This document shows, piece after piece, positions 1 to 27,061 of a stretch of DNA of 32,057 nt. The notes under the pieces are model-generated. The model did no database searches and had not been told where the DNA came from. It was given only the letters and a program-made list of their open reading frames with translations. The translations under genes were made by a program, and so were the position numbers. Where the stretch lies: contig JAYZVO010000125.1 in NCBI GenBank assembly GCA_036155555.1, positions 1 to 32,057 on the forward strand, written 5' to 3'. This DNA is from Myxococcota bacterium. Lineage in GTDB: Bacteria > Myxococcota_A > Bradymonadia > Bradymonadales > Bradymonadaceae. How positions within the stretch are numbered: position 1 is the first letter of the stretch; every line of letters begins with the position of its first letter.

Positions 1-140
1 GAGGTCACGCTCTCGCCGCTCTCTCTCCCGCTCTTTGGCGTGACTCTCGAACAAATTGGAGGTTCACGCGCGACAGACAGAAGAGAAGAAGAACAGCTCG
101 CGAGAAAGAATCACTGCAAAAAAACGAAGGTTCACGCATC
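1..140 (+). repeat. Three direct copies of an approximately 10-nt motif (G/A)AGGT(T)CACGC at about 1, 59 and 127, in a lower-GC non-coding leader upstream of the first lipoprotein gene
   Basis: Seen directly: 'gaggtcacgc' (1-10), 'ggaggttcacgcg' (58-70), 'gaaggttcacgcatc' (126-140). Spacing is about 60-70 bp. Region 1-430 has no convincing ORF and contains polypurine runs. Confidence 0.35.
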
Positions 141-507
141 TCAAGATAAGACGGGGGCATCAACGATGCCCCGAAGCCTCGAAAACCCTTGAAACCTTGG
201 CGTTTACTAAAATTTCTTACCTCCAGCGTCGATCCAACAACACAGGTGGGACGTAACGATCTAGACAGGCAATGCCTTCAACACAAACACACCGACACCC
301 CCCAATAAAAGATTGGATGTGTTTGTGTAGTGGTGGTGGAGATGGCTTGTAATTCTGGAGGGAACTTTCTAGGGTTTGCGAAAGTGTGTGATCACCACCA
401 ACATGTGGGGAAATATCATCTTCCTCCATACACATGCGACCTCATGCATCGTGCGGGGGGAGCATCACGGTCAAGACACAAACCCGAACACCCAAGAAAG
501 CAAGAAA

Positions 508-2185
508 GATGACCTACAACTCGTTTATGAAGTTTGGTGCGCTCAGCAGCGCAATTTTGTGTATGGCCATGTTCAGCGGCTGTGGAGAAGCTGAAGATCA
601 GTTTCTGACGCTGGACCAGGGTCTCCAGAAAGGGACCCCTGGCGCACAAAACGGAGACGGCAACTTCTGCAAAGGCGCCGAACTCTGCGCCGAGGGCGAA
701 GGTGACTGCGACCGCAACGATCAATGCGAAGCGGGGTTAATTTGTGGCCACAACATCGGCGATCGCTTCGGATTCCAGAGCGGCCTGGACGTGTGTGTGA
801 AATCACACTGCACTAACAACCGCGTGGATGGAGACGAGGTCGGGCTTGATTGCGGCGGCTCATGTGGGCAATGCCCGACGATGAACCCGTACCCGGTCGG
901 CCACCCGCTCTACTGCAAAAACCCGTCGTTCCCCTGCCAGACAGCCGAAGGACCATGTTACAACGACGGCCACTGCGACACGGGTCTTGTCTGTGGCGTG
1001 AACAAGGCAGGTTCTTATGGCGTGATGCCTCCCGAGATGAACGTTTGCGTTCTGGAGTCCTGCGACAACGACATCCTGGACAGCGGCGAGACAGGGCTCG
1101 ACTGCGGCGGCTCGTGCGGCACATGCGATCACAAGGTGATCCAAACAGCGCTTGGCGACAACCACACCTGTGCGTTGCGCGCCGACGGCACGGTGGCTTG
1201 TTGGGGCCGCAACAACGTGGGACAGCTCGGCGATGGGACGATCAGCACGCGCACTTCTCCGGTCGTGGTTCCTGGCCTGATGAATGTCCAGGAAATCGTC
1301 GCGGGCTCCTTGCACACCTGCGCGCGCCTCAAAGACTTCACGGTGCGTTGTTGGGGCAGCAACGGAAACGGGCAGCTCGGTGATGGCACCAAGACAACGA
1401 GACGTAGCCCGACGCCAGTCTCGGGCCTGGGCAGCGTGCTCTCGCTCACGGCGGGCGGCTATCACACCTGCGCGACCCGCGCCAATGGTACGGTCTCTTG
1501 TTGGGGTCGCAACAACTACGGGCAGCTCGGCGACGGGACCCAGACCGAGCGCACCTTGCCAACACGCGTCGTCGCCCTCGAAGGCTCGAAGGCCGTCGCT
1601 GCTGGCGCCAACCACACCTGTTCTCGCCTCGCGGACGGGACAGCGCGTTGTTGGGGACGAAATTATGGTGGACAGCTCGGCGACGACACGACCACGGACA
1701 GCCCGCTGCCTGTCGTTGTTGTGGGATTGACGGACATCAAACAGATGACCGCAGGTCTCGGCCACACGTGCGCGATTCAAAACAGCGGCGCCGCGTTCTG
1801 CTGGGGCTCGAACAACAACTCTCAGCTCGGCACGGGCACGAGCGGCATCCAGCGCGTCCCGACGGCGGTCTCAGGGTTGAGCAGCGGCGTCTCGCACATC
1901 GGCGCGGGCGCCAACCACACCTGCGCAGCCATCAACGATGGCACCGCGCGCTGTTGGGGGCTGAACACCAACGGTCAGGTGGGGGATGCCTCGAACACGA
2001 CGCGTGCGCTGCCAGTGACAGTGTCCGGTTTGAGCGGAGCAGTCAGGATCTCGGGCGGCGCGAGGCACACATGCGCTGCTCAATCGACAGGTGCCTCCAG
2101 TTGTTGGGGAGCAGGCAACTTCGGCCAGCTCGGCAACGGCGGAACGGCCAATAGCAACACCCCTGTCACCGTGACGTTCCCTTGA
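508..2185 (+). CDS. Secreted lipoprotein with two tandem Cys-rich modules followed by a 7-repeat RCC1-type beta-propeller
   Basis: Signal peptide plus lipobox (MKFGALSSAILCMAMFSGCGEAE). Two copies of a Cys-rich module end in ...DGDEVGLDCGGSCGQC and ...DSGETGLDCGGSCGTC. Seven repeats then follow of the type HTC..R.DGTv.CWGrNnyGQLGDGT, an RCC1 signature. Alternative start at 527. Confidence 0.8.
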
Positions 2186-2218
2186 GAAGAGGTCAGCCAG
2201 GCTGACCTCTTCTCAAGG
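2180..2218. repeat. Perfect 19-bp-arm inverted repeat (CCTTGAGAAGAGGTCAGCC-A-GGCTGACCTCTTCTCAAGG) overlapping the stop codon of the upstream gene, with no T-tract after it
   Basis: Read directly from the sequence. The stop TGA at 2183-2185 lies in the left arm. Confidence 0.8.
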
Positions 2219-2251
2219 AATGTCCTGGGCAGGCTCGCAAAATAAGGGTTC

Positions 2252-4297
2252 ATGATGAAGCATTCTCTCAAATCACTCCTCATACTCGGTTCGATGGTTT
2301 CATTGACCGCGTGTGGCGAAGCAGCCAACGAGTACTACGGCCCTGACGGTCAGATCCTACAGTCCTTGACCAAGGGGCAACCTGGCGCACAAGTAGGCGA
2401 CCTGGATTACTGCTACGATCCCAACAACCGTTGCGATGTTGGCGAAGGGAAATGCTCCAATCACAACCAGTGCCTGACTGGCCTTAAATGCGCCCTTCGT
2501 GGCGAGATTTACGGGCACCCAGGCTTGCGCGTGTGCCACCCGGCGCACTGCCTGAACTCGCGCCTGGATGCGGACAAAGGAGAGGTCGGCATCGACTGTG
2601 GCGGTGTATGTGGGGACTGTGAGTTCGCCGCGACCTGCTACAACGGGACCCAAGATCCTGGCGAGGAAGCCGTGGATTGTGGAGGCCCGGACTGCGATGC
2701 TTGCGAGACGATCGACCTCACGGTCAACTCTCCTAACCCTGACTCGGCCTACACTGGTCTCCCTCCCAGGGCTGCTGGGCGAGTGAACGCGGTGAGCATC
2801 GATCAGCGCGCCAACCGTACCGTGCAGTTCGAGATCGACGGGCAATCCGTCGGCTCGACGCAGAGCACCTCGAACGGCGCGTGGGAGTTCCGTCTCCCGG
2901 CGCGTCCTCCAGGCATCTACACGCTCCGCACGAGCGTGGACAATGGAGGCAACATCTCGGAGGACATCCGAGATTACCGCATCATCAACTCGACCAATCG
3001 CCCGGCATCGAGCCAACTCCAGCTTGGAGGAAAGTCGACGTCGATCTCGACGCGAGCGGCGACCATCGATCCTTCAAACCACTCGGTCATCGTCGGCGTG
3101 ACTTCGCTTGACTTCGTCTTCGGCTCGACCACGATCGAGCGAGGCAGCGCGGGAGGCATCGTCGCGTTCGTGGCGCGCGCGACGCCAGAAGGCGTGCCGC
3201 TGTGGGCGACGCGCGTCGCGGGCACAGGCTCGACAACGATCAACGCAGTCCGCACGCTCTCCAATGGAGAGATCGTGGTCCTGGGCGACTTCACCGGGAG
3301 CATCGACCTCGGCAGTGGCCCGGTCAACGCGGCAGGTTCACGCGATGCCTTTGTCGCCAAGTTCGACACGAACGGCCAGTTGGTCTGGGGCCGCGTGCTC
3401 TCGGCGACCGGCGCGACATCGATCCGAACGATCGCGATCACGGCACAGGATGAGATCATCGCCACTGGTAACTTCACCGGCACCGCCGACCTCGGAGGAA
3501 CGCTCACGCACCCCTCGGCGGGTGGGTTGGACATGTTCGTCACCAAGATCGACGCGAACGGCAATCACATCTGGGACCACACATTCGGCAGCTCGGGCCA
3601 GGATGTCGTCAACGACGTGAGCACCAACAATGATGGCGAGATTTACATCACGGGAGCTTACGCGAGCGCGATCTCGTTCGACGCCATCGACCTGGCAGGT
3701 CCGGGCACGAACAGCGCCTTCGTGACCAAGCTCTCGACCGTCGGGAAGGCGATCTGGGCCAAGGACATCGGCGGTGACGTGAACGATGCAGGCGGTCGCA
3801 TCGCGGTCGCACCCACTGGTGAAGTCGTGGTCACAGGGATCTTCAATGGCGATGTCGACTTTGGCGACGGCGTCTTCGTGACCACTGCCACGGACAACTT
3901 CGACATGTTTATGGCGCGCTTCTCGAGCGAGGGCGACCACGTCTGGAGCCGTCAAATCCAGGCTGTTCTTGGCGACAGCATTACGGGGTTGGGCGTCGGT
4001 CCATCCAACAACATCTACATCACAGGTCGCACCTTCGAGACGATCGACCTCGGTGATGGCCCACGCACGACGGCCAACCTCGTCGACGGGTTCCTCGCGA
4101 CCTACTCCCCGACAGGAGAGCTCGCCAGCGAGCGCTTCTTCGACGCGGGCCGCGAGGTCACGCCACGCTCACTCTATGTCAACGGGCTCAACGCTTACAT
4201 CGTCAGCGGAGATCTCATCGGCGAAGATGTGGACTTCGGGACAGGGTCGCTCCCCAACACGTCGCGACGCGCTGGCTTCTTCGCGCGTTATCAGTAA
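2252..4297 (+). CDS. Secreted lipoprotein: paralogous Cys-rich module, an Ig-like domain, and about 8 SBBP-like beta-propeller repeats
   Basis: Lipoprotein signal (LILGSMVSLTACGEA). The Cys-rich N-terminus is paralogous to the 508-2185 protein (..RCDVGEGKCSNHNQCLTGLKCA.., ..DKGEVGIDCGGVCGDC, ..EEAVDCGGPDCDAC). A Big/Ig-like stretch follows (VQFEIDGQSVG...NGAWEFRLPARPPGIYTLRTSVDNGGNIS). Repeats then follow of the type 'aG..dDafVaKfd.nG..vW...G..g.D.g..ia....geivvtG.f.G..DfG'. Confidence 0.75.
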   Translation: MMKHSLKSLLILGSMVSLTACGEAANEYYGPDGQILQSLTKGQPGAQVGDLDYCYDPNNRCDVGEGKCSNHNQCLTGLKCALRGEIYGHPGLRVCHPAHCLNSRLDADKGEVGIDCGGVCGDCEFAATCYNGTQDPGEEAVDCGGPDCDACETIDLTVNSPNPDSAYTGLPPRAAGRVNAVSIDQRANRTVQFEIDGQSVGSTQSTSNGAWEFRLPARPPGIYTLRTSVDNGGNISEDIRDYRIINSTNRPASSQLQLGGKSTSISTRAATIDPSNHSVIVGVTSLDFVFGSTTIERGSAGGIVAFVARATPEGVPLWATRVAGTGSTTINAVRTLSNGEIVVLGDFTGSIDLGSGPVNAAGSRDAFVAKFDTNGQLVWGRVLSATGATSIRTIAITAQDEIIATGNFTGTADLGGTLTHPSAGGLDMFVTKIDANGNHIWDHTFGSSGQDVVNDVSTNNDGEIYITGAYASAISFDAIDLAGPGTNSAFVTKLSTVGKAIWAKDIGGDVNDAGGRIAVAPTGEVVVTGIFNGDVDFGDGVFVTTATDNFDMFMARFSSEGDHVWSRQIQAVLGDSITGLGVGPSNNIYITGRTFETIDLGDGPRTTANLVDGFLATYSPTGELASERFFDAGREVTPRSLYVNGLNAYIVSGDLIGEDVDFGTGSLPNTSRRAGFFARYQ

Positions 4298-4437: not shown

Positions 4438-5607
4438 ATGCCCAAGTCAGCCCTCTCAAACGCTTCGACGCACCCACCGCGCGCCGAAAGGCCGCTCAAG
4501 GTCCTCCATGTCCTCCCCTGGATCACCCACGGGGGTGTCGAGAAGCGACGGTTGGAGCTGATCCAGAAGCTCGACCCTGCTCGTTTCGAGCAGCGATTCT
4601 TGACCTCGCGCGCAGACGGAGCCGTCGCTGACGCGCTCGCCAGCGCGAACATCCCTGTCACAGTGATCGATGGGCCCTGGTCGATCCTCAACCTCGACGC
4701 GATCAACGCGGTGCAAAGCTACGCCGCTGAGTGGAAACCAGACATCATCCACGGCGCCGTCTTTGAAGGTTGCGTGATGGCCGCGCTCGGCGGTTATCTG
4801 GCAGGAGTGCCGCACCGAATCATCGAGGAGACCGCGGGATCGCCGCACCGTTCCTGGCGCGGAGACCTGCTACTCTCTGGCGTCGCCGCGATCGCCACGC
4901 ACTGCGTCGGGATCTCGCCATACACCGCACAGTTCCTACAGGATCGCTCGCAAGTCCCCGCGTCGAAGGTGAGCGTTATCGTCAATGGCACCCCCTTTCC
5001 CGAGGAGCTCGGCGAGGATGGCAAGCGCGCCTCGAGGGCGCGCTTCGGCATCCCCGAGGACGCGCTCGTGATCGGTTGCCTGGGGCGCATGTTCGATAGC
5101 ATCAAGCGATTCAGCGACTTGCTCGCAGCGATGACCATCCTCGAGCATCCCGAGCGACCGATTTATTTGCTGCTCGGAGGCGATGGTCCAGACCTCGAAA
5201 AACTTCGCGCGAAAGCGCGCGAACTCGGCGTCTCGGAGCGCGTGATCTTCGCGGGTTTTCATGGCGACGTCGCGCCGCTCTATGCCTGCATGGACATCTT
5301 CGCGCTGGCGTCGGTCTTTGAAGGGTTCGGGCTGGTGCTCGCGGAGGCGATGAGCGTCTCGCTCCCTGTGGTCGCCACGCGCGTGGGGGCGATCCCCTTC
5401 ATCGTCGAAGATGGCGCCAGCGGATTGCTCGTCCCGCACAGCTCCCCCAAAGCGCTCGCGGCATCGCTCCAACGCCTTATCGATGCCCCTGAACTACGCA
5501 TATCCCTGGGTCGAACAGGCCGAGAGAGGGCGCGCCGAGACTTCTCCTCCGAACGCTACGCTGGTGATGTGGAGCGCCTCTACACGGACCTCATGGCGGC
5601 GACGTGA
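4438..5607 (+). CDS. Glycosyltransferase, family 4 (GT-B fold)
   Basis: N-terminal 'KVLHVLPWITHGGVEKRRLELIQKLD'. C-terminal GT4 signature 'EGFGLVLAEAMSVSLPVVATRVGAIPFIVEDGASGLLV'. Confidence 0.8.
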   Translation: MPKSALSNASTHPPRAERPLKVLHVLPWITHGGVEKRRLELIQKLDPARFEQRFLTSRADGAVADALASANIPVTVIDGPWSILNLDAINAVQSYAAEWKPDIIHGAVFEGCVMAALGGYLAGVPHRIIEETAGSPHRSWRGDLLLSGVAAIATHCVGISPYTAQFLQDRSQVPASKVSVIVNGTPFPEELGEDGKRASRARFGIPEDALVIGCLGRMFDSIKRFSDLLAAMTILEHPERPIYLLLGGDGPDLEKLRAKARELGVSERVIFAGFHGDVAPLYACMDIFALASVFEGFGLVLAEAMSVSLPVVATRVGAIPFIVEDGASGLLVPHSSPKALAASLQRLIDAPELRISLGRTGRERARRDFSSERYAGDVERLYTDLMAAT

Positions 5608-6881
5608 GCGCCCCGAATGGATTGAAGAGAACGATGGATCGATCACGCACGTTGTTTGTCACCTGGGATGGCCCCGCGCAGAACTATATGGAGGCCCTCT
5701 TCTTCCCCATCTTCGAGCGCGCGTTGCGCGAGCAGATCGACATCGGCGTCCTCCAATTTACCTGGGCGAGCGAGGAGGTCCGCCAACGCATCGGCGCGTC
5801 GGCGGCCAAGCACGGCCTCGAGTACCGCGGCAGCGACGCGCTCCGGCGCCCTCGTCAATTAGCCGTCCCCGCCATGATCGCCTATGGCGCCGCGCGCGTG
5901 ATCGCCGAGGTCGACCGCGGCGACTGGGACACGCTCATGCCTCGCAGCATCATCCCCGCGTCGATGTGTTTGTTGGCGATGAAAGCCAGACCTCACCTGC
6001 GCCTCGTCTTTGACGCGGACGGGTTGATGGCGGACGAGCGCGTGGACTTCGCGGGATGGAGCCCCACGGGCGTACAATACCGCCTCTTTCGCGATTGGGA
6101 GGCGCAAGGCGTGCGACGCGCCAGCTCGGTGATCGTGCGCTCGGCGCATGCGAAGCGCATCCTCGCGAGCCGCGCAGGCGCGCACTGCGACCCAGATAAG
6201 ATCCATGTGATCCCCAACGCCAAGGACGACACGCTGTTCTCGCCGGGAGACGCAGCCTCTCGAGCAAAAACGCGAGAGGGGATGGGGATCGACGCCGAGG
6301 CGCCCTTACTGATTTATGCTGGCTCCCTCGGACCTCAGTATCACCCGCTCGGCATGCTCCAGCTCTTCGAGCGCGTGCACGCGCTCGATCCGCGCGCGCG
6401 CTTTCTCATCCTGAGCGGGATGCAAGAGGTCGCGAGAGAGCTGCTCCCGCGCATCGACAAGGCCGCGCGCGAGAATGTGATCATCCATCGCTGCGCCTCT
6501 CACGAGGTCGCGCCGCTGATGGCAGCAGCAGACCTCGGGCTCTCGTTGCGTCAACCGAGCTTCTCACAACAGGCGGTCTGCCCGATCAAGATCGCCGAGT
6601 ACCTGCTCTGCGGCCTCTCGGTGGTCATGCTCCGAGGCGTGGGCGATCTCGACGAACGCCTCGCGGACTCACCGGCGCTGCGCACGCTCGAGCAGGTCTC
6701 TCCAGAATCACTCGAGCAAGCCGCGCGCTGGTGCGTCGAAGACGTGATGCCAGCGCGCGCGGATATCCGCGAAGTCTCTCGTCAGGCAGGGCTCGACCAC
6801 TTTCGGCTCGATGACTGCGCGGACCAGTTGGCCGCGTTGCTCATGCCACCTCGCTCTCACACACCAAGGAAGACCTCATGA
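5604..6881 (+). CDS. Glycosyltransferase-like protein (GT-B fold, GT4-related); the start may be ATG 5634 instead of the GTG 5604 that overlaps the upstream stop
   Basis: 'LLIYAGSLGPQYHPLGMLQLFERV...RFLILSGMQE...CPIKIAEYLLCGLSVVM' resembles the GT4 C-terminal domain and E-x7-E region. The 4-nt overlap with the upstream stop (GTGA) suggests translational coupling. Confidence 0.6.
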   Translation: MSAPNGLKRTMDRSRTLFVTWDGPAQNYMEALFFPIFERALREQIDIGVLQFTWASEEVRQRIGASAAKHGLEYRGSDALRRPRQLAVPAMIAYGAARVIAEVDRGDWDTLMPRSIIPASMCLLAMKARPHLRLVFDADGLMADERVDFAGWSPTGVQYRLFRDWEAQGVRRASSVIVRSAHAKRILASRAGAHCDPDKIHVIPNAKDDTLFSPGDAASRAKTREGMGIDAEAPLLIYAGSLGPQYHPLGMLQLFERVHALDPRARFLILSGMQEVARELLPRIDKAARENVIIHRCASHEVAPLMAAADLGLSLRQPSFSQQAVCPIKIAEYLLCGLSVVMLRGVGDLDERLADSPALRTLEQVSPESLEQAARWCVEDVMPARADIREVSRQAGLDHFRLDDCADQLAALLMPPRSHTPRKTS

Positions 6882-7813
6882 AGAAAGTGCTCATCACCGG
6901 AGGCGCCGGATTTATCGGTTCGCACCTGTGCGACCGACTCGTCGAGCAAGGAGACGAGGTGATCGTCCTCGACAACCTCACCAGCGGGAACCTCGGCAAC
7001 CTGGCAGGAGTGATCGATCAGATCACCTTCATCGAGGATGACGTGACCCGTGTGCTCGATCACCGCGACGCGTTCGAGGGAGTGACACACATCGTCCACC
7101 TGGCCGCGCTGATCAGCGGTTATGACAGCCTGAACGAGCCGGATGATTACCTGGCGCAGAACGTGGGCGCCTTGCTCCGCGTGCTGGAGCTTGCCAGAGA
7201 TCTTGGTGGCGTGCGGATCTCCTTCGCGTCGAGCTCCACGGTGTATGGAAACAGCGTCGAGCCGATCAAGCTCGAGACGCAACGCCCCGAACCGATCACG
7301 ATGTACGCGCTGACCAAGCTCTCTGGCGAGCACCTGCTCGAGATGTATCGCCCGCTCTACAACTACAGCTACGTCGCGTTGCGATTCTTCAACGTCTACG
7401 GACCTCGCCAGAGCCCGAACCACCCCTACGCCAACGTGACCTGCAAGTTCTCGCAGGCCGCGGCGCTCGGCGCGGGGATCAAGCTCTTTGGCGATGGCCA
7501 GCAAACGCGCGATTTTGTCTACGTCGACGACGTGGTCAACTCTCTGCTGGTCACCATGGATGGCGCGCCGAGCAACCTCTACAACGTGGGCAATGGGGAA
7601 GATCACTCGATCTTGAAGCTCATCGACACGCTCGAGGGCATCGTCGAAAAACCCTTCGAGATCGAGCGCTGCGACCCTTGGCCAAACGACATCCGCAAGA
7701 TCATCGCGGACACCGAGCGCCTCACGAGCGAGACCTCATGGCGCGCGACGACCTCGCTTCGTGATGGGCTGGCGCGCACGGTCGAGTTCTTCCAGGCCGA
7801 GGAGCAGGCATGA
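6878..7813 (+). CDS. NAD-dependent sugar-nucleotide epimerase/dehydratase (extended SDR family)
   Basis: 'MKKVLITGGAGFIGSHLCDRLVEQGDEVIVLDNL' Rossmann motif. Catalytic 'YALTKLSGE' (YxxxK). ATGA overlap with the upstream stop. RBS AAGGAAG. Confidence 0.85.
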   Translation: MKKVLITGGAGFIGSHLCDRLVEQGDEVIVLDNLTSGNLGNLAGVIDQITFIEDDVTRVLDHRDAFEGVTHIVHLAALISGYDSLNEPDDYLAQNVGALLRVLELARDLGGVRISFASSSTVYGNSVEPIKLETQRPEPITMYALTKLSGEHLLEMYRPLYNYSYVALRFFNVYGPRQSPNHPYANVTCKFSQAAALGAGIKLFGDGQQTRDFVYVDDVVNSLLVTMDGAPSNLYNVGNGEDHSILKLIDTLEGIVEKPFEIERCDPWPNDIRKIIADTERLTSETSWRATTSLRDGLARTVEFFQAEEQA

Positions 7814-8757
7814 GCAACGTCGAGCGCGAGTATGGTGACGTGGCGTTGGTGATCGCGACCTTCAGGCAGGATGAGCCCGTGCTTCGCCTGCTCGAGGACG
7901 CGTTTGATGCAGATAACAAGCACCCCTTCGCCAAGATCGCGATCGTGGACTCGCTGGGCAGCGGGGCGATCGAGCGCGCGATCGAGGAGCGAGGCTGGGA
8001 GCGCGTCACCTATCACAACGCCGATCACAACCTCGGCTCGGCGGGCAACCTCGCCATGCGCCTCGAGCTCGCCGCACAAGATCCCGAGGTCAACTGGGCC
8101 TACGCGCTCAACCATGATGGCGAGCTGCAATGGGACGCGCTGTTGGCGCTCGTGAGCAGGGGGCGCGCGCAGTTGGCAAGGGGAACACGCGTCGGCGCAC
8201 TCTACCCGCTGCGCTACACGACGCATTTGCAAAAGTACAACCTCACAGGCCGCACCACGTTGCCGATCCCTTACGTGGGGACGAAGACAAAACCCACCGG
8301 CGACAGCTTCAGGGTTTATTGGGCGAGCTCCAACGGGGCGCTGTATGCGACCGAGCCAGTGCGAGAGGGGCTTGGCCCCTGGCCAGATTTGTGGATGGGC
8401 TGGGAGGATCTCGGCTACGGCTGGCAGCTCGACGCGCACGGCTGGCACCAGGAGGTGGTCTGCGACGCGATCTTCGAGGATGGCTACGAGTACACCGCGA
8501 AGGGAAGCGGCGCGGCCAAGGTGCAGATCACGGACAAGCCGACCTGGTATGCTTATTACCAACTTCGTAACCTGATGCTCGTCGCGAAACGCAACGAGCG
8601 AGGACCGCTGACCTGGAGCGTGATCGCAGGACGCGTCGCGCTCGAGTTTGGCCTGAGCCTGACCTTGCGTCCCGATCGCGCGCGGCGTATACCCTTCCTT
8701 CTCAATGGGATAGCGGATGGGTTGAGCGAGCAAAGCGGCAAGTGGCTCTACCCTTAA
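7810..8757 (+). CDS. Putative GT-A fold (GT2-like) glycosyltransferase
   Basis: 'VALVIATFRQDEPVL...IAIVDSLGSG...YHNADHNLGSAGNLAMRLE...ALNHDGE...WMGWEDLGYGW' resembles rhamnosyl/galactofuranosyl-transferase GT2 motifs. ATGA overlap with the epimerase gene. Confidence 0.45.
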   Translation: MSNVEREYGDVALVIATFRQDEPVLRLLEDAFDADNKHPFAKIAIVDSLGSGAIERAIEERGWERVTYHNADHNLGSAGNLAMRLELAAQDPEVNWAYALNHDGELQWDALLALVSRGRAQLARGTRVGALYPLRYTTHLQKYNLTGRTTLPIPYVGTKTKPTGDSFRVYWASSNGALYATEPVREGLGPWPDLWMGWEDLGYGWQLDAHGWHQEVVCDAIFEDGYEYTAKGSGAAKVQITDKPTWYAYYQLRNLMLVAKRNERGPLTWSVIAGRVALEFGLSLTLRPDRARRIPFLLNGIADGLSEQSGKWLYP

Positions 8758-8783
8758 CACCTTATAAAAGGAGGGCTTGCACG

Positions 8784-9551
8784 ATGGGCCAAAAATCACA
8801 CTCGAGCAATCCGGCAAGCGTCCATCACTGGCGCGATGTCAGCCACAACCCTAACGACCGGCGAGTGCGCACTTACCTGCGAGACTACTTGCGCGAGCGT
8901 TATCAGGGTCGCATCCCCTCGACGCATGATTTCCTCAAGGACTTCGTGCGTGATTGCACCGCGCTCGACATCGGCGTGGTGGCGCACGAGATCGAGCGCA
9001 CGAAGTCGCCGCTCTGGAAGCACAACATGGTCCGCAGCACCGCGACTCATGCGGTGGGCGTCGACATCATCGAGGACGCCGTCGCCGCGCTCGTCGAGCG
9101 CGGCTTCGACATCCGCTGCGTGGACGCCACGAGCGACGTCGATCTTGGCGAGCGCTTCGAGCGCGTGGTGATCGGCGATGTGATCGAGCACGTGAACAAC
9201 CCGGTCAAACTGCTCCAGTTCGCCAAGCGCCACCTCACACCTGATGGGCGCATCCTTTGCACGACGCCCAACCCCTTCTTCATCGCCACGCTCGTCAGCT
9301 CCGTGCGTGAAGGGGTCTTTATCCCGAACGCCGAACACGTCGCCTGGATCTCTCCGACGATGGCCATCGAGATCGCCCACCGCGCAGGTCTGGAGCTCGA
9401 CGCATACTGGCATACGCAAGGGGACGGCAAGACGTTCAAGCGCAAGCTCGCGGTGAAGATGCTCGAGCTCGGGAACCTCCGTGAGAGCGAGCTCTTCTCG
9501 GGGAGCTTCTACTATGTCTTCAAGCTCTCCAGCGATAGCGAACGAGACTGA
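8784..9551 (+). CDS. Class I SAM-dependent methyltransferase
   Basis: RBS AAAGGAGGG 8 nt before ATG 8784. Motif I region '...CTALDIGVVAHEIERTKSP...'. '...VVIGDVIEHVNNPVKLLQFAKRHLTPDGRILCTTPNP' is typical of Methyltransf_11/23-type post-motif II/III. Confidence 0.7.
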   Translation: MGQKSHSSNPASVHHWRDVSHNPNDRRVRTYLRDYLRERYQGRIPSTHDFLKDFVRDCTALDIGVVAHEIERTKSPLWKHNMVRSTATHAVGVDIIEDAVAALVERGFDIRCVDATSDVDLGERFERVVIGDVIEHVNNPVKLLQFAKRHLTPDGRILCTTPNPFFIATLVSSVREGVFIPNAEHVAWISPTMAIEIAHRAGLELDAYWHTQGDGKTFKRKLAVKMLELGNLRESELFSGSFYYVFKLSSDSERD

Positions 9552-9599
9552 TTCGGCCATTGCGCCGAACAACCTTCGCTCGCATCAGGAGAAGCGCGC

Positions 9600-10244
9600 G
9601 TGAAAGAGAAGAGCACCGACGCCAAGGCCAACGCGCCAGCGATTTTTGCCCCGACCGGTTATGTCTCACGCGAAGAGCACGAGACGCTCAAAGCACAGCG
9701 CGGCGCTTGCGTCTGGCTCACGGGGCTCTCGAGTAGCGGGAAGACATCGATCGCGCGCGCGCTCCAGCGCGCGCTCCACGCGCGCGGCGTGCACACCTAC
9801 GCGCTCGATGGGGACATGTTGCGGGGAGGTCTTTGCAAAGACCTCCCCTTCACACAGGAAGGGCGCGAGGAGAACATCCGACGCGCTGGCGAGGTCGCGC
9901 AGTTGATGGTAGACGCTGGGCTGATCGTCACCGCCGCGTTTATCTCGCCCTACCGTGAGGGACGAGCTCTTATCCGCGAGCGCATGCCTCGAGGGCGCTT
10001 CATCGAGTGCCACGTATCCTGCCCGCTCACGGTTTGCGAAGCGCGCGATACCAAGGGACTCTATGCGCGCGCCCGCGCTGGCGAGCTGGATCACTTCACA
10101 GGGATCTCGGCACCGTATGAAGCGCCCGAAGCGCCCGACTTGAAGCTCGAGACCGCTCCGACCGGGATCACCCCCGAGGAGTGTGCGATGAAGATCATAG
10201 CCTTGCTCGAAGAGCGAGGCTTGCTCTCGAAAGACACCCCCTGA
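9600..10244 (+). CDS. cysC: Adenylyl-sulfate (APS) kinase, stand-alone
   Basis: '[21 protein letters not shown]' P-loop. '[55 protein letters not shown]'. '...[36 protein letters not shown]' matches the conserved APS kinase core. GTG start with upstream AGGAG. Confidence 0.85.
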
Positions 10245-10262
10245 ACGCCAAAGGAAGAAGCA

Positions 10263-11543
10263 ATGAGCTGGCGAGTGGCCTCGTTTATGGAGGGGTTTCC
10301 GGCGCGCTCGGAGACCTATATTTTGTGGCACATGACCGAGTTGATTCGCGCGGGTCACGACGTGACATTGTACCCGGTGCGGCGCAACTCTCCCGAGGGT
10401 GCGCACGATGAGGTCTCTCGCTACAACTTCATGGAGCGCGTCGTCGCCCCACCCGTGTGGCCAGACGAGCGCGAAGCGCGCGCCTGGGACGCCTTCACCT
10501 CGCTCGCGCGCGCGATGACACGCGATCCGATGGCGCTGCTGCGGTTGCTCGCCCACGCCACAGGAGATCGCGGCGTCGGCTGGCCCCAGATCGTGCGACA
10601 GATCGCGTGGGCACCCATAAAGAAACGACACGACGTGGCGCACGCTTACTTTGGCCCGCCAGGACGACGCGCGCAGTTCTTGCGCGATGTTGGCATGCTG
10701 CGCGCGCCGCTCGTGGTGAGCTTCCTCGGCTTCGATCTCAACGTCCTCCCAGGCAGGACAGGCCCCGATTACTACGGGCGATTGTTTGAAGGCGCAGACT
10801 GTCTGTGCGTCTCCTCTCGGTTTATGCGTCGCAAGCTCCTCTCGCTCGGCGCTCCCGAGGAGCGCATTCGCGTCCTCCCGATCGGGCTCCCCTTGAAAGG
10901 ATTTGCCTTCCGCCCGAGGCAACTCGCTGACGGCGAGACGATGACCTTGATCGCTGCCGCTCGCCTCACGGAAGTGAAAGGAATCTCCTGGGGATTGAAG
11001 GGCCTCGCGCTCGCGCGCGAGGCAGGTTTGGATGTGCGCTGGGAGATCTTTGGCGACGGCCCACTGAGAGCAGAACTCGAAGCACTGAGAGCGGAGCTTG
11101 GCCTGGAAGACGCGGTGACGTTCCATGGGTTCGTGCCAATTCAGGAGGTCCAACGCGCCATGGAGACCGCGCACGCGTGCCTGTTTCCCGGTGTCGCAGC
11201 AGCAGATGGCGCGGAAGAGGCGCTCGGAGGAGCGGTGCTCGAGGCGCAAGCCTGCGGCTTGCCCGTGATCGCATCCGAGGTTGGAGGAATCCCGGAAGGT
11301 TTCGTCCCCGGAGTCTCGGGGTATCTCGTCCCACAGCGCGATCCTGAAGCGATCGCGAAGGCGCTACGCGACCTCCACGACAACCGCGAGCAGTGGCCGA
11401 CCATGGGCGAAGCAGGGCACGCGCACGTTCAGGAGCGCTACGATTGCGAGGCGCTCAACGAGCGATGGGAGCGGCTCTATGACGGGTTAGTCGCCGGAAC
11501 GCTCCCGACGCAGGCAGAGATCGACGCGCCGCTCACGCGCTGA
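10263..11543 (+). CDS. Glycosyltransferase, family 4
   Basis: RBS AAGGAAGAAG. 'ETMTLIAAARLTEVKGISWGLKGLA...WEIFGDGPLRAELEALRAELGLEDAVTFHGFV...GGAVLEAQACGLPVIASEVGGIPEGFVPGVSGYLV' are canonical GT4 motifs. Confidence 0.8.
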   Translation: MSWRVASFMEGFPARSETYILWHMTELIRAGHDVTLYPVRRNSPEGAHDEVSRYNFMERVVAPPVWPDEREARAWDAFTSLARAMTRDPMALLRLLAHATGDRGVGWPQIVRQIAWAPIKKRHDVAHAYFGPPGRRAQFLRDVGMLRAPLVVSFLGFDLNVLPGRTGPDYYGRLFEGADCLCVSSRFMRRKLLSLGAPEERIRVLPIGLPLKGFAFRPRQLADGETMTLIAAARLTEVKGISWGLKGLALAREAGLDVRWEIFGDGPLRAELEALRAELGLEDAVTFHGFVPIQEVQRAMETAHACLFPGVAAADGAEEALGGAVLEAQACGLPVIASEVGGIPEGFVPGVSGYLVPQRDPEAIAKALRDLHDNREQWPTMGEAGHAHVQERYDCEALNERWERLYDGLVAGTLPTQAEIDAPLTR

Positions 11544-11547
11544 AAGC

Positions 11548-12654
11548 TCATCCTCGCCTCGGCGCGCGATCATAAAGATCGTGCAGGGCGCCGATGTAAC
11601 GTGACGGCGAGAAACGACGGTGCGCGATCTCTCTCGCCGCATCACCGAGCTCCTCTCGTTCGGCATCGCTCCACTCGTGAGCGGTGCGCAAGACATCGAT
11701 CCAACCTTGCAAATCAGTGGAGTCCGTGAGGTAGGCATCTCCGAGCTCTCCCATCACCTCACGCACGCCGCTCGCGGTCGAGCCGAGCGGTGGGATGCCG
11801 GTGGCCATCGCCTCGAGCAACGCCACGCTGCATCCTTCGCTGTGGGAAGGGATGACGAACACATCGTGAGCATCGAGCAGCTCTCGGACATCTGTGCGAA
11901 AACCGAGCATGGTGACGTGCGCGCCGAGGTCGAGCGTCTCGACGAGCGCCGAGAGCTCGTCGCGCAACGCGCCATCACCTGCGATATCGAGCGTGATGTC
12001 GCGTCCTTCCTCGTGCACCAGGTGTGCGACGGCGCGGAGCAACGTCTCGTGGTTTTTCACTGGCACCAACCGCCCCGCGGTGAACAGGCGCAACGGCCCC
12101 TGACGTTTGTAACCTCGGGTACGGGCGGTGAAGAATCGAGGATTGCCGCAGTTGTAGAGCAACTCGACACGATCGCGAGGCATGCGATCCTCTGTCAAAA
12201 GGTAATCACACGTCGCCTGCGAGACGCCGATCACGACATCGACGAGCCTGGAGATCGCCGCGTAGGCGAGGTTGCCTGAAGCAGAGCGCGCGGGCACGCC
12301 TGTGTCCTCGATGATCGAGAGCGGAGTGCCCGCGAGCCAGCTCGCGATGGCGCCATGAAACATCGCCTCGGCGATGCTGGCGTGGAGCACATCTGGCTTT
12401 TGTTGCGCGAGGTAAGCCCACAATTTCAAGGTCGCGCGCGGGTTGCGCACGCTCGGGTCGACGTCGAGGACATCGACGGGGACACCGAGCTCGCGGATCG
12501 CCTCGGCCGCCTGGCCCGGCTTCCAGAAGGTGCAAACGCGCAGCTCGAAGCGCTCGTGGTCCATGAGCGAGGATTGGAGCGTCACGCGCGACTCCACGCC
12601 GCCAAAGTCAAGGACTGGCAACAGGCGCACGATCTTCTTTCTACGATGGGACAT
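11548..12654 (-). CDS. Glycosyltransferase, family 4
   Basis: 'KKIVRLLPVLDFGGVESRVTLQSSL...LRLFTAGRLVPVKNHETLLRAVAHL...DIAGDGALRDELSALVETLDLGAHVTMLGFR...EGCSVALLEAMATGIPP'. Convergent with the previous gene, with 4 nt between the stops. Confidence 0.8.
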   Translation of the reverse strand: MSHRRKKIVRLLPVLDFGGVESRVTLQSSLMDHERFELRVCTFWKPGQAAEAIRELGVPVDVLDVDPSVRNPRATLKLWAYLAQQKPDVLHASIAEAMFHGAIASWLAGTPLSIIEDTGVPARSASGNLAYAAISRLVDVVIGVSQATCDYLLTEDRMPRDRVELLYNCGNPRFFTARTRGYKRQGPLRLFTAGRLVPVKNHETLLRAVAHLVHEEGRDITLDIAGDGALRDELSALVETLDLGAHVTMLGFRTDVRELLDAHDVFVIPSHSEGCSVALLEAMATGIPPLGSTASGVREVMGELGDAYLTDSTDLQGWIDVLRTAHEWSDAEREELGDAAREIAHRRFSPSRYIGALHDLYDRAPRRG

Positions 12655-16075: not shown

Positions 16076-16389
16076 ATGCCGCAACGGGGCGATCGACCAG
16101 TGGGATGGAACATCGCTCTGATGTCTCTCAACGTGGGAAGGGGATGGGCGCGGCCGATCTGGTTCGTCCAGATCGGCCGCGTCTTGTCTGTCAGAGGGTC
16201 GATAGTGTAGCTTGGCACGCACTTCAAACGAGGAAAGACTCGAAATGATGGGAGAGGTACGCGACATCGCTTGCAGGCGATGACGCGGTGGGTTTGAGAG
16301 CACGCGATGTGCATGTGCGATGAGCGCCAGAGCGATGGCGAGATTCCGCGCAGGCTTCGTGCTGGATTTGGTTGGAAAGAGAGGCGCAC

Positions 16390-17235
16390 ATGCAAGAATT
16401 TTTAACCATCATCCTCTCGATGCCCACGGTCGTATACACGGTGTTGATGGGACTCATGGCCCTCTACTGGGTCACGGTCATCATGGGCGCGGTGGATATC
16501 GACCTCTTCGATCTGGATGCAGATCTGGACGCAGATATCGACCTCGACGCGGACGTGGACCTGGATGTGGACGCGGATATCGACGTCGATGTCGACGCAG
16601 GCGTGGACACAGACATCGATCTGGACGCAGCGCATGGGAGCGCAGGGGTTGTCGTCTCGCTGCTCTCGGCGCTCGGCCTGGTGGGTGTGCCGCTGACGAT
16701 CTCGCTCAGCATCCTGGTGCTCTTTAACTGGTCATTGACCTTCTTGCTCGCCTACTCGCTGGGCGCAGGCAAGGAACCATTGAGCACCTTGTTCGGCGTG
16801 GCGGTCATGGGAGGGAGCTTGATCGCTTCGACGCTCTTGACCTCGATCGCGGTTCGTCCGATCCGCCCTCTCTTCCGCAGCAAGGCTGGCGCGAAAGCTG
16901 GCCGCGCGCTGGTGGGGATGACGATCAAGGTGACCTCGGGGAGCGTGACCGACACGTTCGGGCGCGCCGAGGGCACGTTGGATGACGCGACGATCAACTT
17001 CTCGATCCGATGCGAAGAGGAGAACAGCCTCTCCAAAGGCGATGACGCCCTGGTGATCGGATACGACGAGAACGCGCACGTTTACTACGTGGAGCCGCTC
17101 GATTCGATGTTGTCCGGGAAATCAAAGCACGGAGGGAAGAGCGCGCAGGAGCTCGAGGCTGTCTTCGACGAGCTCGAAGCTCAGCAAGAAGAAGAGGTCG
17201 AGGTCGGCGTCGAAGCCGAGGTCGACAAGGGCTAG
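16390..17235 (+). CDS. NfeD/YqiJ-like inner-membrane protein: N-terminal TM, acidic D-x repeat, 2-3 TMs, C-terminal OB-fold-like beta-barrel
   Basis: ATG 16390 is preceded by a purine-rich RBS; an alternative TTG start lies at 16372. Hydrophobic segments flank 'DIDLFDLDADLDADIDLDADVDLDVDADIDVDVDAGVDTDIDLDA'. The C-terminal 'LVGMTIKVTSGSVTDTFGRAEGTLDDATINFSIRCEEENSLSKGDDALVIGYDENAHVYYVEP' has the pattern of NfeD short-form OB domains. It lies immediately upstream of a flotillin gene, as in the yqiJ-yqiK and yuaF-floT arrangements. Confidence 0.65.
   Translation: MQEFLTIILSMPTVVYTVLMGLMALYWVTVIMGAVDIDLFDLDADLDADIDLDADVDLDVDADIDVDVDAGVDTDIDLDAAHGSAGVVVSLLSALGLVGVPLTISLSILVLFNWSLTFLLAYSLGAGKEPLSTLFGVAVMGGSLIASTLLTSIAVRPIRPLFRSKAGAKAGRALVGMTIKVTSGSVTDTFGRAEGTLDDATINFSIRCEEENSLSKGDDALVIGYDENAHVYYVEPLDSMLSGKSKHGGKSAQELEAVFDELEAQQEEEVEVGVEAEVDKG
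16495..16629 (+). repeat. Coding tandem repeat with 6-nt periodicity, (GAY-hydrophobic codon) about 22 times, encoding about 45 residues of alternating Asp and hydrophobic residues
   Basis: 'gatatcgacctcttcgatctggatgcagatctggacgcagatatcgacctcgacgcggacgtggacctggatgtggacgcggatatcgacgtcgatgtcgacgcaggcgtggacacagacatcgatctggacgca'. It also generates spurious antisense ORFs at 16402-16712. Confidence 0.85.
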
Positions 17236-19874: not shown

Positions 19875-19968
19875 AACATGACGATGTGGTCAAGCGGTTC
19901 CTGGCTCGGGACACGTTTGCCCTGAGGAAGGGCGCGGTGTTCTCCGTGTGAAAGCAGGTGAGAAGAAG

Positions 19969-26917: not shown

Positions 26918-27061
26918 ACCTGAGCGAGAATGGAGCGCCTCGCGTGTGCGGCGAGAGAGACGTGTTCGTTTCGCTCGCTCGCCTGCGGTGGCCACTCTGA
27001 ACCGTGTCCAAACCATCGCGGTGATTTTACGCGAGCCCCTTTCGTGCCCGAGGTACCCTGC

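What the first reader, a model, noticed from the sequence alone, without database searches (positions are those of the whole stretch)
508..4297. Two adjacent lipoproteins share a novel Cys-rich module (…D-x2-E-x-G-φ-D-C-G-G-x-C-x2-C) but carry different beta-propellers
Seen in sequence: the module occurs twice in the 508-2185 protein and 1-2 times in the 2252-4297 protein. It shares about 10 conserved Cys, a 'GEGxC…QC.AGL.CG' core and the distinctive 'HC.N.R.D.DE.G.DCGG.CG.C' tail. It is fused in one case to a 7-blade RCC1 propeller and in the other to an Ig-like domain plus SBBP-like repeats. I cannot assign the module to a named family. It only loosely resembles myxobacterial Cys-rich repeats, LNR or EGF. 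Inference: a secreted, disulfide-bonded ligand- or adhesin-type module shuffled between propeller scaffolds. Its placement immediately upstream of a glycan cluster suggests glycan-binding or processing exo-proteins.
Basis: partly seen in the sequence, partly recalled or inferred. Interest (0 to 1): 0.55.

Follow-up and report, generated by a model that had tools for sequence, protein, structure and literature searches.

The report
Two-part cysteine-rich module in lipoproteins
Two neighbouring lipoprotein genes share a real, widespread cysteine-rich module that the family libraries scanned do not model; it is made of two smaller disulfide units in series and most likely forms a stiff stalk between the membrane anchor and a beta-propeller, which is useful for annotation but not a surprise in kind.

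Summary
Gene B (2252-4297, 681 aa) has one full module, one tail-only unit, a weak Ig-like match and an SBBP-type propeller. Both have lipoprotein signals.

- **No named family.** The module has no Pfam, NCBIfam or PDB sequence match.
- **Widespread.** An exhaustive HMMER search finds 2,497 cluster representatives.
- **Composite.** A six-Cys N unit and a four-Cys T unit (C-x-N-G-x2-D-x2-E-x-G-x-D-C-G-G-x-C-x2-C) each also occur alone in arrays.
- **Fold.** AlphaFold with an alignment gives a confident model (pLDDT 89). It has no significant structural neighbour; the best, non-significant matches are knottin toxins and Dickkopf.
- **Not Dickkopf_N.** The window scores 8.7 bits against a 25-bit cutoff, and hhalign gives 9%.

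Full modules are mainly in Myxococcota lipoproteins. They sit right after the signal and a conserved leader, in 1-17 copies, ahead of many different C-terminal domains. My best reading is a disulfide-stapled stalk (about 0.45). A binding or docking role remains possible, because the modules are more conserved than the propellers between orthologues. Adjacency to glycan genes is lineage-specific (4 of 29 loci).

The parts
509..2185 (+). Gene A: lipoprotein with two Cys-rich modules and an RCC1 propeller (558 aa)
   Evidence: ORF list; JGI gene call of 558 aa on identical contigs; Pfam RCC1 with 7 repeats and WD40_RLD 5e-78; 84% identical orthologue in L061.
509..583 (+). A signal peptide and lipobox (MTYNSFMKFGALSSAILCMAMFSG-C25)
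   Evidence: Read from the sequence; not run through a signal-peptide predictor. The orthologue keeps ...AVASGC.
620..667 (+). A leader motif GLQKGTPGAQNGDGNF, which precedes and overlaps the start of module 1
   Evidence: The leader L-x-K-G-x-P-G-x-x-N-G-D-x-D-Y is present before 59 of 80 first modules and 6 of 210 inner modules.
653..874 (+). A module 1 (aa 49-122): N unit at nt 653-796 (6 Cys) and T unit at nt 806-874 (4 Cys)
   Evidence: Alignment; coordinates; AF2 model pLDDT 89.2; dN/dS 0.026 against the orthologue.
899..1126 (+). A module 2 (aa 131-206): N unit at nt 899-1048 and T unit at nt 1058-1126
   Evidence: Alignment; BLASTP against module 1, E 7e-17; coordinates.
1127..2182 (+). 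A RCC1-like beta-propeller, seven repeats
   Evidence: PF00415 3.3e-68 in 7 stretches; PF25390 5.4e-78.
2180..2218 (+). Perfect 19-nt inverted repeat overlapping the stop codon of A; likely a terminator or processing hairpin between A and B
   Evidence: the repeat finder; RNA fold -44 kcal/mol, z -7.2; a hairpin of different sequence sits at the same place in orthologous L061.
2252..4297 (+). Gene B: lipoprotein with one full module, one T-only unit, an Ig-like region and an SBBP-type propeller (681 aa)
   Evidence: ORF list; JGI gene call of 681 aa; NCBIfam NF047494 7e-23; 82% identical orthologue in L061.
2252..2314 (+). B signal peptide and lipobox (…GSMVSLTA-C21)
   Evidence: Read from the sequence; weak LptM-type lipoprotein signal match.
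2363..2410 (+). B leader motif SLTKGQPGAQVGDLDY
   Evidence: B aa 22-48 are 27 of 27 identical in the orthologue despite dS of about 1.6.
2396..2620 (+). B module 1 (aa 49-123), N unit plus T unit
   Evidence: Alignment; BLASTP against A module 1, E 1e-15; dN/dS 0.017.
2633..2704 (+). B extra T-only unit (aa 128-151, TCYNGTQDPGEEAVDCGGPDCDAC)
   Evidence: Alignment; motif scan; T units occur alone in other proteins.
2738..2926 (+). B possible Ig-like domain (weak)
   Evidence: Pfam Big_3_5 E 0.029, 15.3 bits against a cutoff of 35.5.
3017..4294 (+). B SBBP-type beta-propeller region
   Evidence: NF047494 LipL53-family SBBP lipoprotein 6.7e-23; Pfam SBBP 0.019. This region matches 19 other proteins that also carry module arrays, 18 of them with at least one full module.

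Best explanation
**What it is (shown).** The shared module is a genuine, widespread extracytoplasmic domain arrangement that Pfam and NCBIfam do not model. It consists of two independent small disulfide units in series.
- The N unit is about 48 aa with six Cys: Y-C-x5-C-x2-G-E-G-D-C-D-x-D-x2-C-x2-G-L-x-C-x4-G-x2-F-G-x5-D-V-C. Its predicted core is a beta-hairpin.
- The T unit is about 23 aa with four Cys: C-x-N-G-x2-D-x2-E-x-G-x-D-C-G-G-x-C-x2-C.

**How it works (inferred).** In genes A and B the order is lipid-modified Cys, a roughly 25-aa linker with a conserved leader, one or two modules, then a beta-propeller. I read the array as the membrane-proximal, disulfide-stapled and possibly Ca2+-stabilised stalk of an exported lipoprotein. 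It would hold the propeller, the working end, at a set distance from the membrane, with length tuned by copy number.
For: **Real and widespread**
- Family size: 2,497 cluster representatives at E <= 1e-3 and 846 at <= 1e-10.
- The two units occur separately: N-only arrays reach 15 copies and T-only arrays 32.
- Each unit has an even number of Cys. Cys 8 and Cys 10 are lost together in 18 of 299 full instances, which suggests that C8-C10 and C7-C9 pair within the T unit.
- The AF2 model built with an 81-sequence alignment is confident (pLDDT 89.2, pTM 0.77).

**Stalk-like placement**
- In 80 of 89 proteins whose first unit is a full module, the array begins within the first 90 residues; at least 50 of those 80 have a recognisable lipobox.
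- Copy number varies while the C-terminal domain stays the same: 2-4 modules before RCC1 (15 proteins) and, in the 19 SBBP-type proteins that carry full modules, 1-6.
- Modules within one protein are more alike (54-59%) than modules between proteins (46-49%), as expected for an expanding and contracting repeat array.
- Partner domains are very diverse.
- T-only arrays occur in Bacteroidota-type T9SS cargo that also carries protease, CAP or DUF11 domains and a C-terminal sorting domain.
- Another lipoprotein, P0180, has lipobox, then the classical myxobacterial Cys repeat PF13948, then RCC1. A different Cys-rich unit therefore occupies the same slot.
- Residues conserved across the family are almost all Cys, Gly, Asp, Glu and Asn, a structural skeleton rather than an obvious binding face.
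Against: - Between the window and its orthologous locus L061 the modules are the most constrained parts: dN 0.03-0.07 and dN/dS 0.02-0.04, against dN 0.11 and dN/dS 0.12-0.14 for the propellers. B's linker and leader are 27 of 27 identical. A purely passive spacer would not be expected to be more conserved than the working domain. This is one pair only, and dS is near saturation.
- N-only arrays often sit at the C-terminus of secreted enzymes such as GDSL lipase and beta-lactamase. That is where binding modules are usually found.
- First modules carry their own leader. Their closest relatives in other proteins are first modules in 61 of 83 cases, which points to a position-specific role.
- I could not read the model's coordinates, so neither rigidity nor disulfide topology was checked directly.
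- There are no experimental data.
Confidence: 0.45

Rival explanations
1. The module is a binding or docking element rather than a spacer. It would be a small knottin-like lectin or CBM-type unit, or a partner-docking unit, that ties the lipoprotein to the cell's own polysaccharide or to a conserved envelope partner. The propeller would be the variable part.
For: - The modules, and B's linker and leader, are under stronger purifying selection than the propellers in the one orthologue pair.
- N-only arrays sit C-terminal to secreted enzymes, as CBMs do.
- First modules carry a specific conserved leader.
- The best, though non-significant, fold neighbours are knottins. Weak Pfam matches in relatives include CBM_1 and toxin knottins.
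- Polysaccharide genes flank the window, L061, L004, L009 and L011.
- Some partner domains act on glycans: heparinase II/III, polysaccharide deacetylase, CBM96.
Against: - Glycan genes lie next to only 4 of 29 loci with full modules. Those four are not independent: L061 is the orthologue and L004 and L009 come from one MAG.
- Context is unrelated at L005, L006, L007, L010, L016, L059 and L060.
- Most partner domains have nothing to do with glycans.
- Copy number of 1-17 and within-protein homogenisation are typical of spacers.
- No conserved non-skeleton surface residues are evident.
Confidence: 0.3
2. The module is a divergent member of an already named family, so nothing new is present. Candidates are Dickkopf_N or colipase-fold, EGF, TNFR, antistasin, Notch LNR, and the myxobacterial Cys repeat PF13948/TIGR02232.
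For: Some N-only array proteins exceed Pfam's Dickkopf_N gathering score (P0011 49.1 bits, P0054 39.0 bits, cutoff 25). Dickkopf structures appear among the non-significant Foldseek matches. The start of the T unit, C-x-N-G-x4-E, loosely recalls the myxobacterial repeat; that resemblance is from my own knowledge.
Against: - The window's modules score 8.7 bits (E 2.9) on Dickkopf_N and hit nothing else at E <= 10.
- hhalign of a 46-sequence N-unit profile against DKK1-4 CRD1 gives 9.3% probability over 25 columns.
- The N unit has 6 Cys, whereas CRD1 has 10.
- PF13948 and TIGR02232 do not hit A or B at E <= 1. No family covers the module in 84 homologues.
- T-only arrays with 8 to 32 copies get no Pfam model for the repeat.
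Confidence: 0.08
3. The acidic motifs (G-E-G-D-C-D-x-D and N-G-x2-D-x2-E-x-G-x-D-C-G-G) make it mainly a Ca2+-binding module. Its folding or rigidity would then be switched by calcium, as in LDL-A, cbEGF or LNR repeats. This is compatible with either role above.
For: E62 and D66 are invariant, and D/N residues dominate the non-Cys consensus in 81 aligned modules. The analogy with Ca-binding disulfide modules rests on my own knowledge.
Against: No match to any Ca-binding family model. I could not inspect coordinates for a coordination site. This is purely motif-level inference.
Confidence: 0.12

Closest known systems
Myxobacterial cysteine-rich repeat (Pfam PF13948 DUF4215 / TIGR02232), as in the stalk of the TraA surface receptor
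   Same: Both are short disulfide-rich tandem repeats in exported Myxococcota proteins, lying between an anchor and a functional head. P0180 shows lipobox, then PF13948, then RCC1, the same slot as here. TraA's Cys-rich repeats are described in PMC3325183 and PMC3820747, which were listed but not read in full.
   Different: No model match at E <= 1. The Cys spacing differs and the DCGG signature is specific to this unit. The anchor here is an N-terminal lipid, not a C-terminal MYXO-CTERM tag (the latter from my own knowledge).
Dickkopf N-terminal Cys-rich domain (PF04706) and knottin / inhibitor-cystine-knot mini-proteins
   Same: The N unit is small, has six Cys and a predicted beta-hairpin core. 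N-only array relatives pass the Dickkopf_N cutoff. The top Foldseek matches are ICK toxins, with TM 0.65-0.70 normalised to the toxin.
EGF-like, LDL-A and Notch LNR modules of eukaryotic extracellular proteins
   Same: They share the logic of small disulfide-bonded, often Ca2+-stabilised, tandem modules that build rod-like extracellular stalks and are shuffled among many proteins. This rests on my own knowledge.
   Different: No sequence-model match. The Cys number and spacing differ. The hosts are bacterial, with a few MAGs labelled as DPANN archaea.
LipL53-family SBBP beta-propeller lipoproteins (NF047494) and bacterial RCC1-like proteins
   Same: The C-terminal propellers of B and A belong to these classes. 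Both architectures recur with the module array: 15 RCC1-type and 19 SBBP-type proteins with full modules.
   Different: These families describe the propellers only and do not include the Cys module. B scores 81 bits against the 400-bit equivalog cutoff, so it is not a LipL53 equivalog.

Membership tests
Pfam Dickkopf_N (PF04706) | Score at or above the gathering threshold (25 bits) | tested here: not met
   The window's modules score 8.7 bits, E 2.9. Some N-only array relatives pass by summing repeats: 49.1, 39.0 and 25.2 bits.
Pfam Dickkopf_N (PF04706) | Ten-Cys CRD1 pattern and profile-level homology | tested here: not met
   The N unit has 6 invariant Cys, whereas DKK1-4 CRD1 has 10 (the DKK4 sequence was verified against 5o57 and 9x64). 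hhalign probability is 9.3%.
Knottin / inhibitor cystine knot fold | Significant structural superposition and knotted 1-4, 2-5, 3-6 disulfide topology | tested here: inconclusive
Myxococcus cysteine-rich repeat (PF13948 / TIGR02232) | Match to the family HMM | tested here: not met
   No hit at E <= 1 in A or B or at E <= 10 in the isolated modules.
   No such Pfam family at E <= 10. PDB profile searches are empty apart from chance RNase hits at E of about 0.1.
RCC1-like beta-propeller (gene A, C-terminal part) | Seven RCC1 repeats above the Pfam threshold | tested here: met
   PF00415 226.5 bits in 7 stretches; PF25390 263 bits against a cutoff of 150.
SBBP beta-propeller lipoprotein, LipL53 family (gene B, C-terminal part) | NF047494 equivalog cutoff (400 bits) or Pfam SBBP cutoff (20.5 bits) | tested here: not met
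   81.1 bits (E 6.7e-23) and 15.3 bits. This is clear similarity to SBBP propellers but not equivalog membership. Thirteen of 84 module-bearing homologues hit the same model, best 3.8e-81.
Bacterial lipoprotein (Lgt/LspA substrate) | Signal peptide ending in a lipobox [LVI..][ASTG][GAS]-C | tested here: met
   A has MFSG-C25 and B has LTA-C21, read from the sequence. The orthologue keeps both. A regex screen finds a lipobox in at least 50 of 80 N-terminal array proteins. No dedicated predictor was run.

The most novel reading that the evidence does not exclude
The conserved leader (L-x-K-G-x-P-G-x-x-N-G-D-x-D-Y-C) together with the first module is a dedicated docking or sorting device of Myxococcota lipoproteins. 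It would be recognised by a surface-export or retention machinery, or would bind the cell's own polysaccharide, and it would carry interchangeable working domains. That would explain why it is more conserved than the propellers and why first modules form their own subgroup.
Probability: 0.12. Interest if true: 0.6.

Novelty: new variant of a known kind. Interest (0 to 1): 0.36.

Why it matters
- **Annotation.** About 2,500 protein clusters carry one or both units with no model in the Pfam or NCBIfam copies scanned. They include giant Myxococcota lipoproteins of 5,000-6,800 aa and T9SS cargo with up to 32 copies. Defining the N unit and the T ('DCGG') unit as two families would annotate long stretches that are now blank and would correct domain boundaries.
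- **Biology.** The architecture (lipid anchor, leader, variable-length disulfide array, interchangeable head) points to a common way of building envelope and surface proteins in predatory and social Myxococcota. The leader motif gives a concrete handle for testing lipoprotein sorting or docking.
- **Limit.** It does not change how disulfide-rich repeat modules are understood in general.

Tried and rejected
- **Full-length structure.** Single-sequence AlphaFold of full-length A gave pLDDT 32 and was unusable.
- **Word-indexed homologue searches.** With the module alone and with the 81-sequence profile they returned only fragments. With full-length A the hits were swamped by RCC1 proteins, and only P0006 and P0234 carried the module.
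- **Locus search.** A four-sequence alignment worked.
- **Dickkopf_N.** This reading was considered because relatives pass the Pfam cutoff. It was rejected after hhalign gave 9.3%.
- **Literature.** A search for the motif strings (VDCGG, DCGGSC and similar) found only unrelated proteins.
- **Glycan association.** It looked promising at 3 of 6 loci but fell to 4 of 29 in a uniform screen.
- **RNA genes.** Rfam and tRNA scans of the window were empty.
Full report
**1. Observation**

The region holds two co-directional genes. Gene A runs 509..2185 and encodes 558 aa. Gene B runs 2252..4297 and encodes 681 aa.

Identical contigs in JGI metagenomes carry gene calls of exactly these lengths. A related locus (L061) starts A at the same Met, while the upstream sequence differs.

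Both products start with a lipoprotein-type signal: ...AMFSG-C25 in A and ...SLTA-C21 in B. I read this from the sequence and did not run a predictor.

The Cys-rich module occurs at A aa 49-122 and 131-206, and at B aa 49-123. An extra tail-only copy is at B aa 128-151. Ten Cys align in every full copy.

The repeats are far beyond chance. Pairwise BLASTP gives E = 1e-15 and 7e-17. The tail motif occurs four times in all six frames of the 32 kb window, only in these two genes.

- A has seven RCC1 repeats (PF00415 3e-68).
- B has a weak Ig-like match and an SBBP-type propeller (NF047494 7e-23).

**2. No named family, but a large one**

Pfam-A and NCBIfam give nothing for the module in A, B or the isolated segments, even at E <= 10. 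The only line is Dickkopf_N at 8.7 bits, E 2.9. PDB sequence searches are empty: one with a single sequence, one with an 81-sequence module profile (only chance RNase hits at E of about 0.1) and one with a 62-sequence tail profile.

An exhaustive HMMER search of 1.84 billion cluster representatives with the window's own four copies found 2,497 proteins at E <= 1e-3, 846 at <= 1e-10 and 173 at <= 1e-30.

Across 84 of these homologues neither Pfam nor NCBIfam has a model that covers the module.

**3. The module is composite**

Domain tables for the top 150 hits show three kinds of match:
- Full modules: 266 instances.
- N-only units, matching profile positions 1 to about 51: 227 instances, in arrays of up to 15.
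- T-only units, matching positions about 50 to 77: 225 instances, in arrays of up to 32.

The N unit carries six Cys. Its consensus is Y-C-x5-C-x2-G-E-G-D-C-D-x-D-x2-C-x2-G-L-x-C-x4-G-x2-F-G-x5-D-V-C.

The T unit carries four Cys. Its consensus is C-x-N-G-x2-D-x2-E-x-G-x-D-C-G-G-x-C-x2-C.

In 299 full instances, Cys 8 and Cys 10 are missing together in 18. This suggests that C8-C10 and C7-C9 pair inside the T unit. An optional extra Cys in the N unit, and another after the T unit, may link neighbouring modules. That last point is inference.

T-only arrays lie in proteins with T9SS sorting domains together with reprolysin, M10 or M43 protease, CAP or DUF11 domains. Even 8 to 32 copies trigger no Pfam model for the repeat.

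**4. Fold**

Single-sequence AlphaFold failed. With an 81-sequence alignment, module 1 of A is predicted confidently: pLDDT 89.2, pTM 0.77, with a beta-hairpin at residues 29-32 and 47-50 plus short helices.

Several N-only array proteins exceed the Dickkopf_N gathering score, so I tested that link directly. A 46-sequence N-unit profile against DKK1-4 CRD1 gives hhalign probability 9.3% over 25 columns. The DKK4 sequence was checked against PDB 5o57. The Cys counts also differ, 6 against 10. Membership is not supported.

**5. Where it occurs and in what architecture**

In the species-level genome collection, full modules are found in MAGs labelled Myxococcota (Nannocystaceae, Polyangiaceae, Sandaracinaceae) or simply 'Proteobacteria'. 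N-only units are spread more widely: Sorangium, Haliangium, Binatia, Acidobacteria, Desulfosarcina, Saccharibacteria and DPANN archaea.

Among the top hits whose first unit is a full module, the array begins within 90 residues of the N-terminus in 80 of 89. A strict regex finds a lipobox in at least 50 of those 80.

First modules are preceded by a conserved leader, L-x-K-G-x-P-G-x-x-N-G-D-x-D-Y-C. It is present before 59 of 80 first modules and 6 of 210 inner modules. Both A and B have it at aa 38-53.

Arrays have 1-17 modules, followed by very different domains. These include RCC1, SBBP, LTD, FGE-sulfatase, trypsin, FG-GAP, spondin, CAP, heparinase II/III, polysaccharide deacetylase and others.

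Both window architectures recur with varying copy number:
- Array plus RCC1: 15 proteins, with 2-4 full modules.
- Array plus SBBP: 20 proteins. Nineteen carry 1-6 full modules and one has only an N unit.

Modules of one protein resemble each other more (54-59%) than modules of other proteins (46-49%). First modules nevertheless find another first module as their nearest foreign relative in 61 of 83 cases.

**6. Genomic context**

Downstream of B lie four GT4 glycosyltransferases, an epimerase, a methyltransferase and an APS kinase. The whole arrangement, A then B then the cluster, is conserved in L061 at 80-93% amino-acid identity.

Other loci with full modules next to polysaccharide genes are:
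- L004: Wzz/BY-kinase and CapD.
- L009: sulfotransferase, APS kinase and UDP-glucose dehydrogenase.
- L011: NeuB, CMP-transferase and GT4.

L005, L006, L007, L010, L016, L059 and L060 have unrelated neighbours.

A uniform homology screen gives 4 of 29 loci with full modules, against 1 of 41 N-only loci. The four positives are not independent, and the screen's queries came from the positive loci themselves. The glycan adjacency is therefore a feature of this lineage, not of the family.

**7. Selection**

Between the window and L061 the modules are the best conserved parts:

| Region | Identity | dN | dN/dS |
|---|---|---|---|
| A module 1 | 91% | 0.053 | 0.026 |
| A module 2 | 88% | 0.067 | 0.041 |
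| B module 1 | 95% | 0.032 | 0.017 |
| A RCC1 propeller | 84% | 0.110 | 0.121 |
| B propeller | 80% | 0.115 | 0.140 |

B's linker and leader (aa 22-48) are 27 of 27 identical, with dS of about 1.6. This confirms that both genes are under purifying selection. It also shows that the N-terminal part is not a sloppy tether. The caveats are that this is one pair, dS is near saturation, and small disulfide domains have a high share of structural residues.

**8. Mechanism**

I commit to the stalk reading at about 0.45. The array is the membrane-proximal, disulfide-stapled and possibly Ca2+-stabilised rod that presents the propeller. The steps that are shown are the domain order, the variable copy number with a constant head, within-protein repeat similarity, the promiscuous partners, and the analogous lipobox-PF13948-RCC1 protein. 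Rigidity and export to the outer membrane or cell surface are inferred.

The main rival, at about 0.30, is a binding or docking role. It is kept alive by the selection pattern, the first-module leader, and the C-terminal N-only arrays on secreted enzymes.

Assignment to a named family is unlikely (about 0.08). A Ca2+-binding role is compatible with either reading.

**9. Novelty and verdict**

The kind of thing is familiar: small disulfide-rich tandem modules in extracellular proteins. The two units appear to be unmodelled in the curated libraries available here. I found no description in the searchable literature.

I rate it a new variant of a known kind. It is of moderate interest, mainly for annotation and as a handle on the architecture of Myxococcota lipoproteins.

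Noticed in passing
window 2180-2218: A perfect 19-nt inverted repeat overlaps the stop codon of gene A (RNA fold -44 kcal/mol, z -7.2). The orthologous locus L061 has a hairpin of different sequence at the same place (about 2187-2209). This suggests a conserved terminator or processing hairpin between A and B.
   Followed up: partly
window 620-667 and 2363-2410: A conserved roughly 15-aa leader (L-x-K-G-x-P-G-x-x-N-G-D-x-D-Y-C) precedes the first module only (59 of 80 first modules, 6 of 210 inner modules). In B the whole linker and leader is 27 of 27 identical in the orthologue. It may be a cap of the first module or a sorting or docking signal.
   Followed up: partly
window 1-508: The 5' region upstream of gene A has lower GC (about 54% over the first 1 kb). 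It contains a direct repeat ending in GGTTCACGC (50-69 and 118-137), several short inverted repeats, and a terminator-like hairpin on the minus strand (172-154). No Rfam family or tRNA was found.
   Followed up: partly
window 4438-12654: A polysaccharide cluster lies downstream of B: four GT4 glycosyltransferases, an NAD-dependent epimerase, a methyltransferase and an APS kinase. An APS kinase suggests a sulfated glycan, but no sulfotransferase domain was detected. ORF 7810-8757 has no Pfam hit yet is 90% conserved in L061 and could be the missing enzyme.
   Followed up: no
window 19948-25713: A giant 1,921-aa protein carries DUF3686 ('ATPase involved in DNA repair', 2.5e-188), DUF7902 and an AAA_5-type ATPase domain. 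It is preceded by two ORFs without Pfam hits (16372-17235 and 17519-19807). I did not investigate its function.
   Followed up: no
window 25778-28165 and 30573-31388 (-): Two tandem SurA-like PPIase genes sit near the end of the window, and an ERF-family single-strand annealing protein lies on the minus strand. The ERF gene hints at a prophage or mobile element at the window's 3' end.
   Followed up: no
P0029, P0045, P0133, P0137, P0146 (proteins): The four-Cys T unit alone forms arrays of 8-32 copies. P0029, P0133, P0137 and P0146 also carry a T9SS sorting domain, with reprolysin (P0137), M10/M43 protease (P0146) or DUF11 (P0029) domains; P0045 has no Pfam hit at all. No Pfam model covers the repeat, so it is a separate candidate family.
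   Followed up: partly
P0007, P0011, P0054 and other homologues: Many modules carry one extra Cys between C1 and C2 (C-x2-C-x-C) and another just after the preceding T unit. N-only arrays have an eight-Cys unit. This pattern suggests an inter-module disulfide that staples neighbouring modules together.
   Followed up: partly
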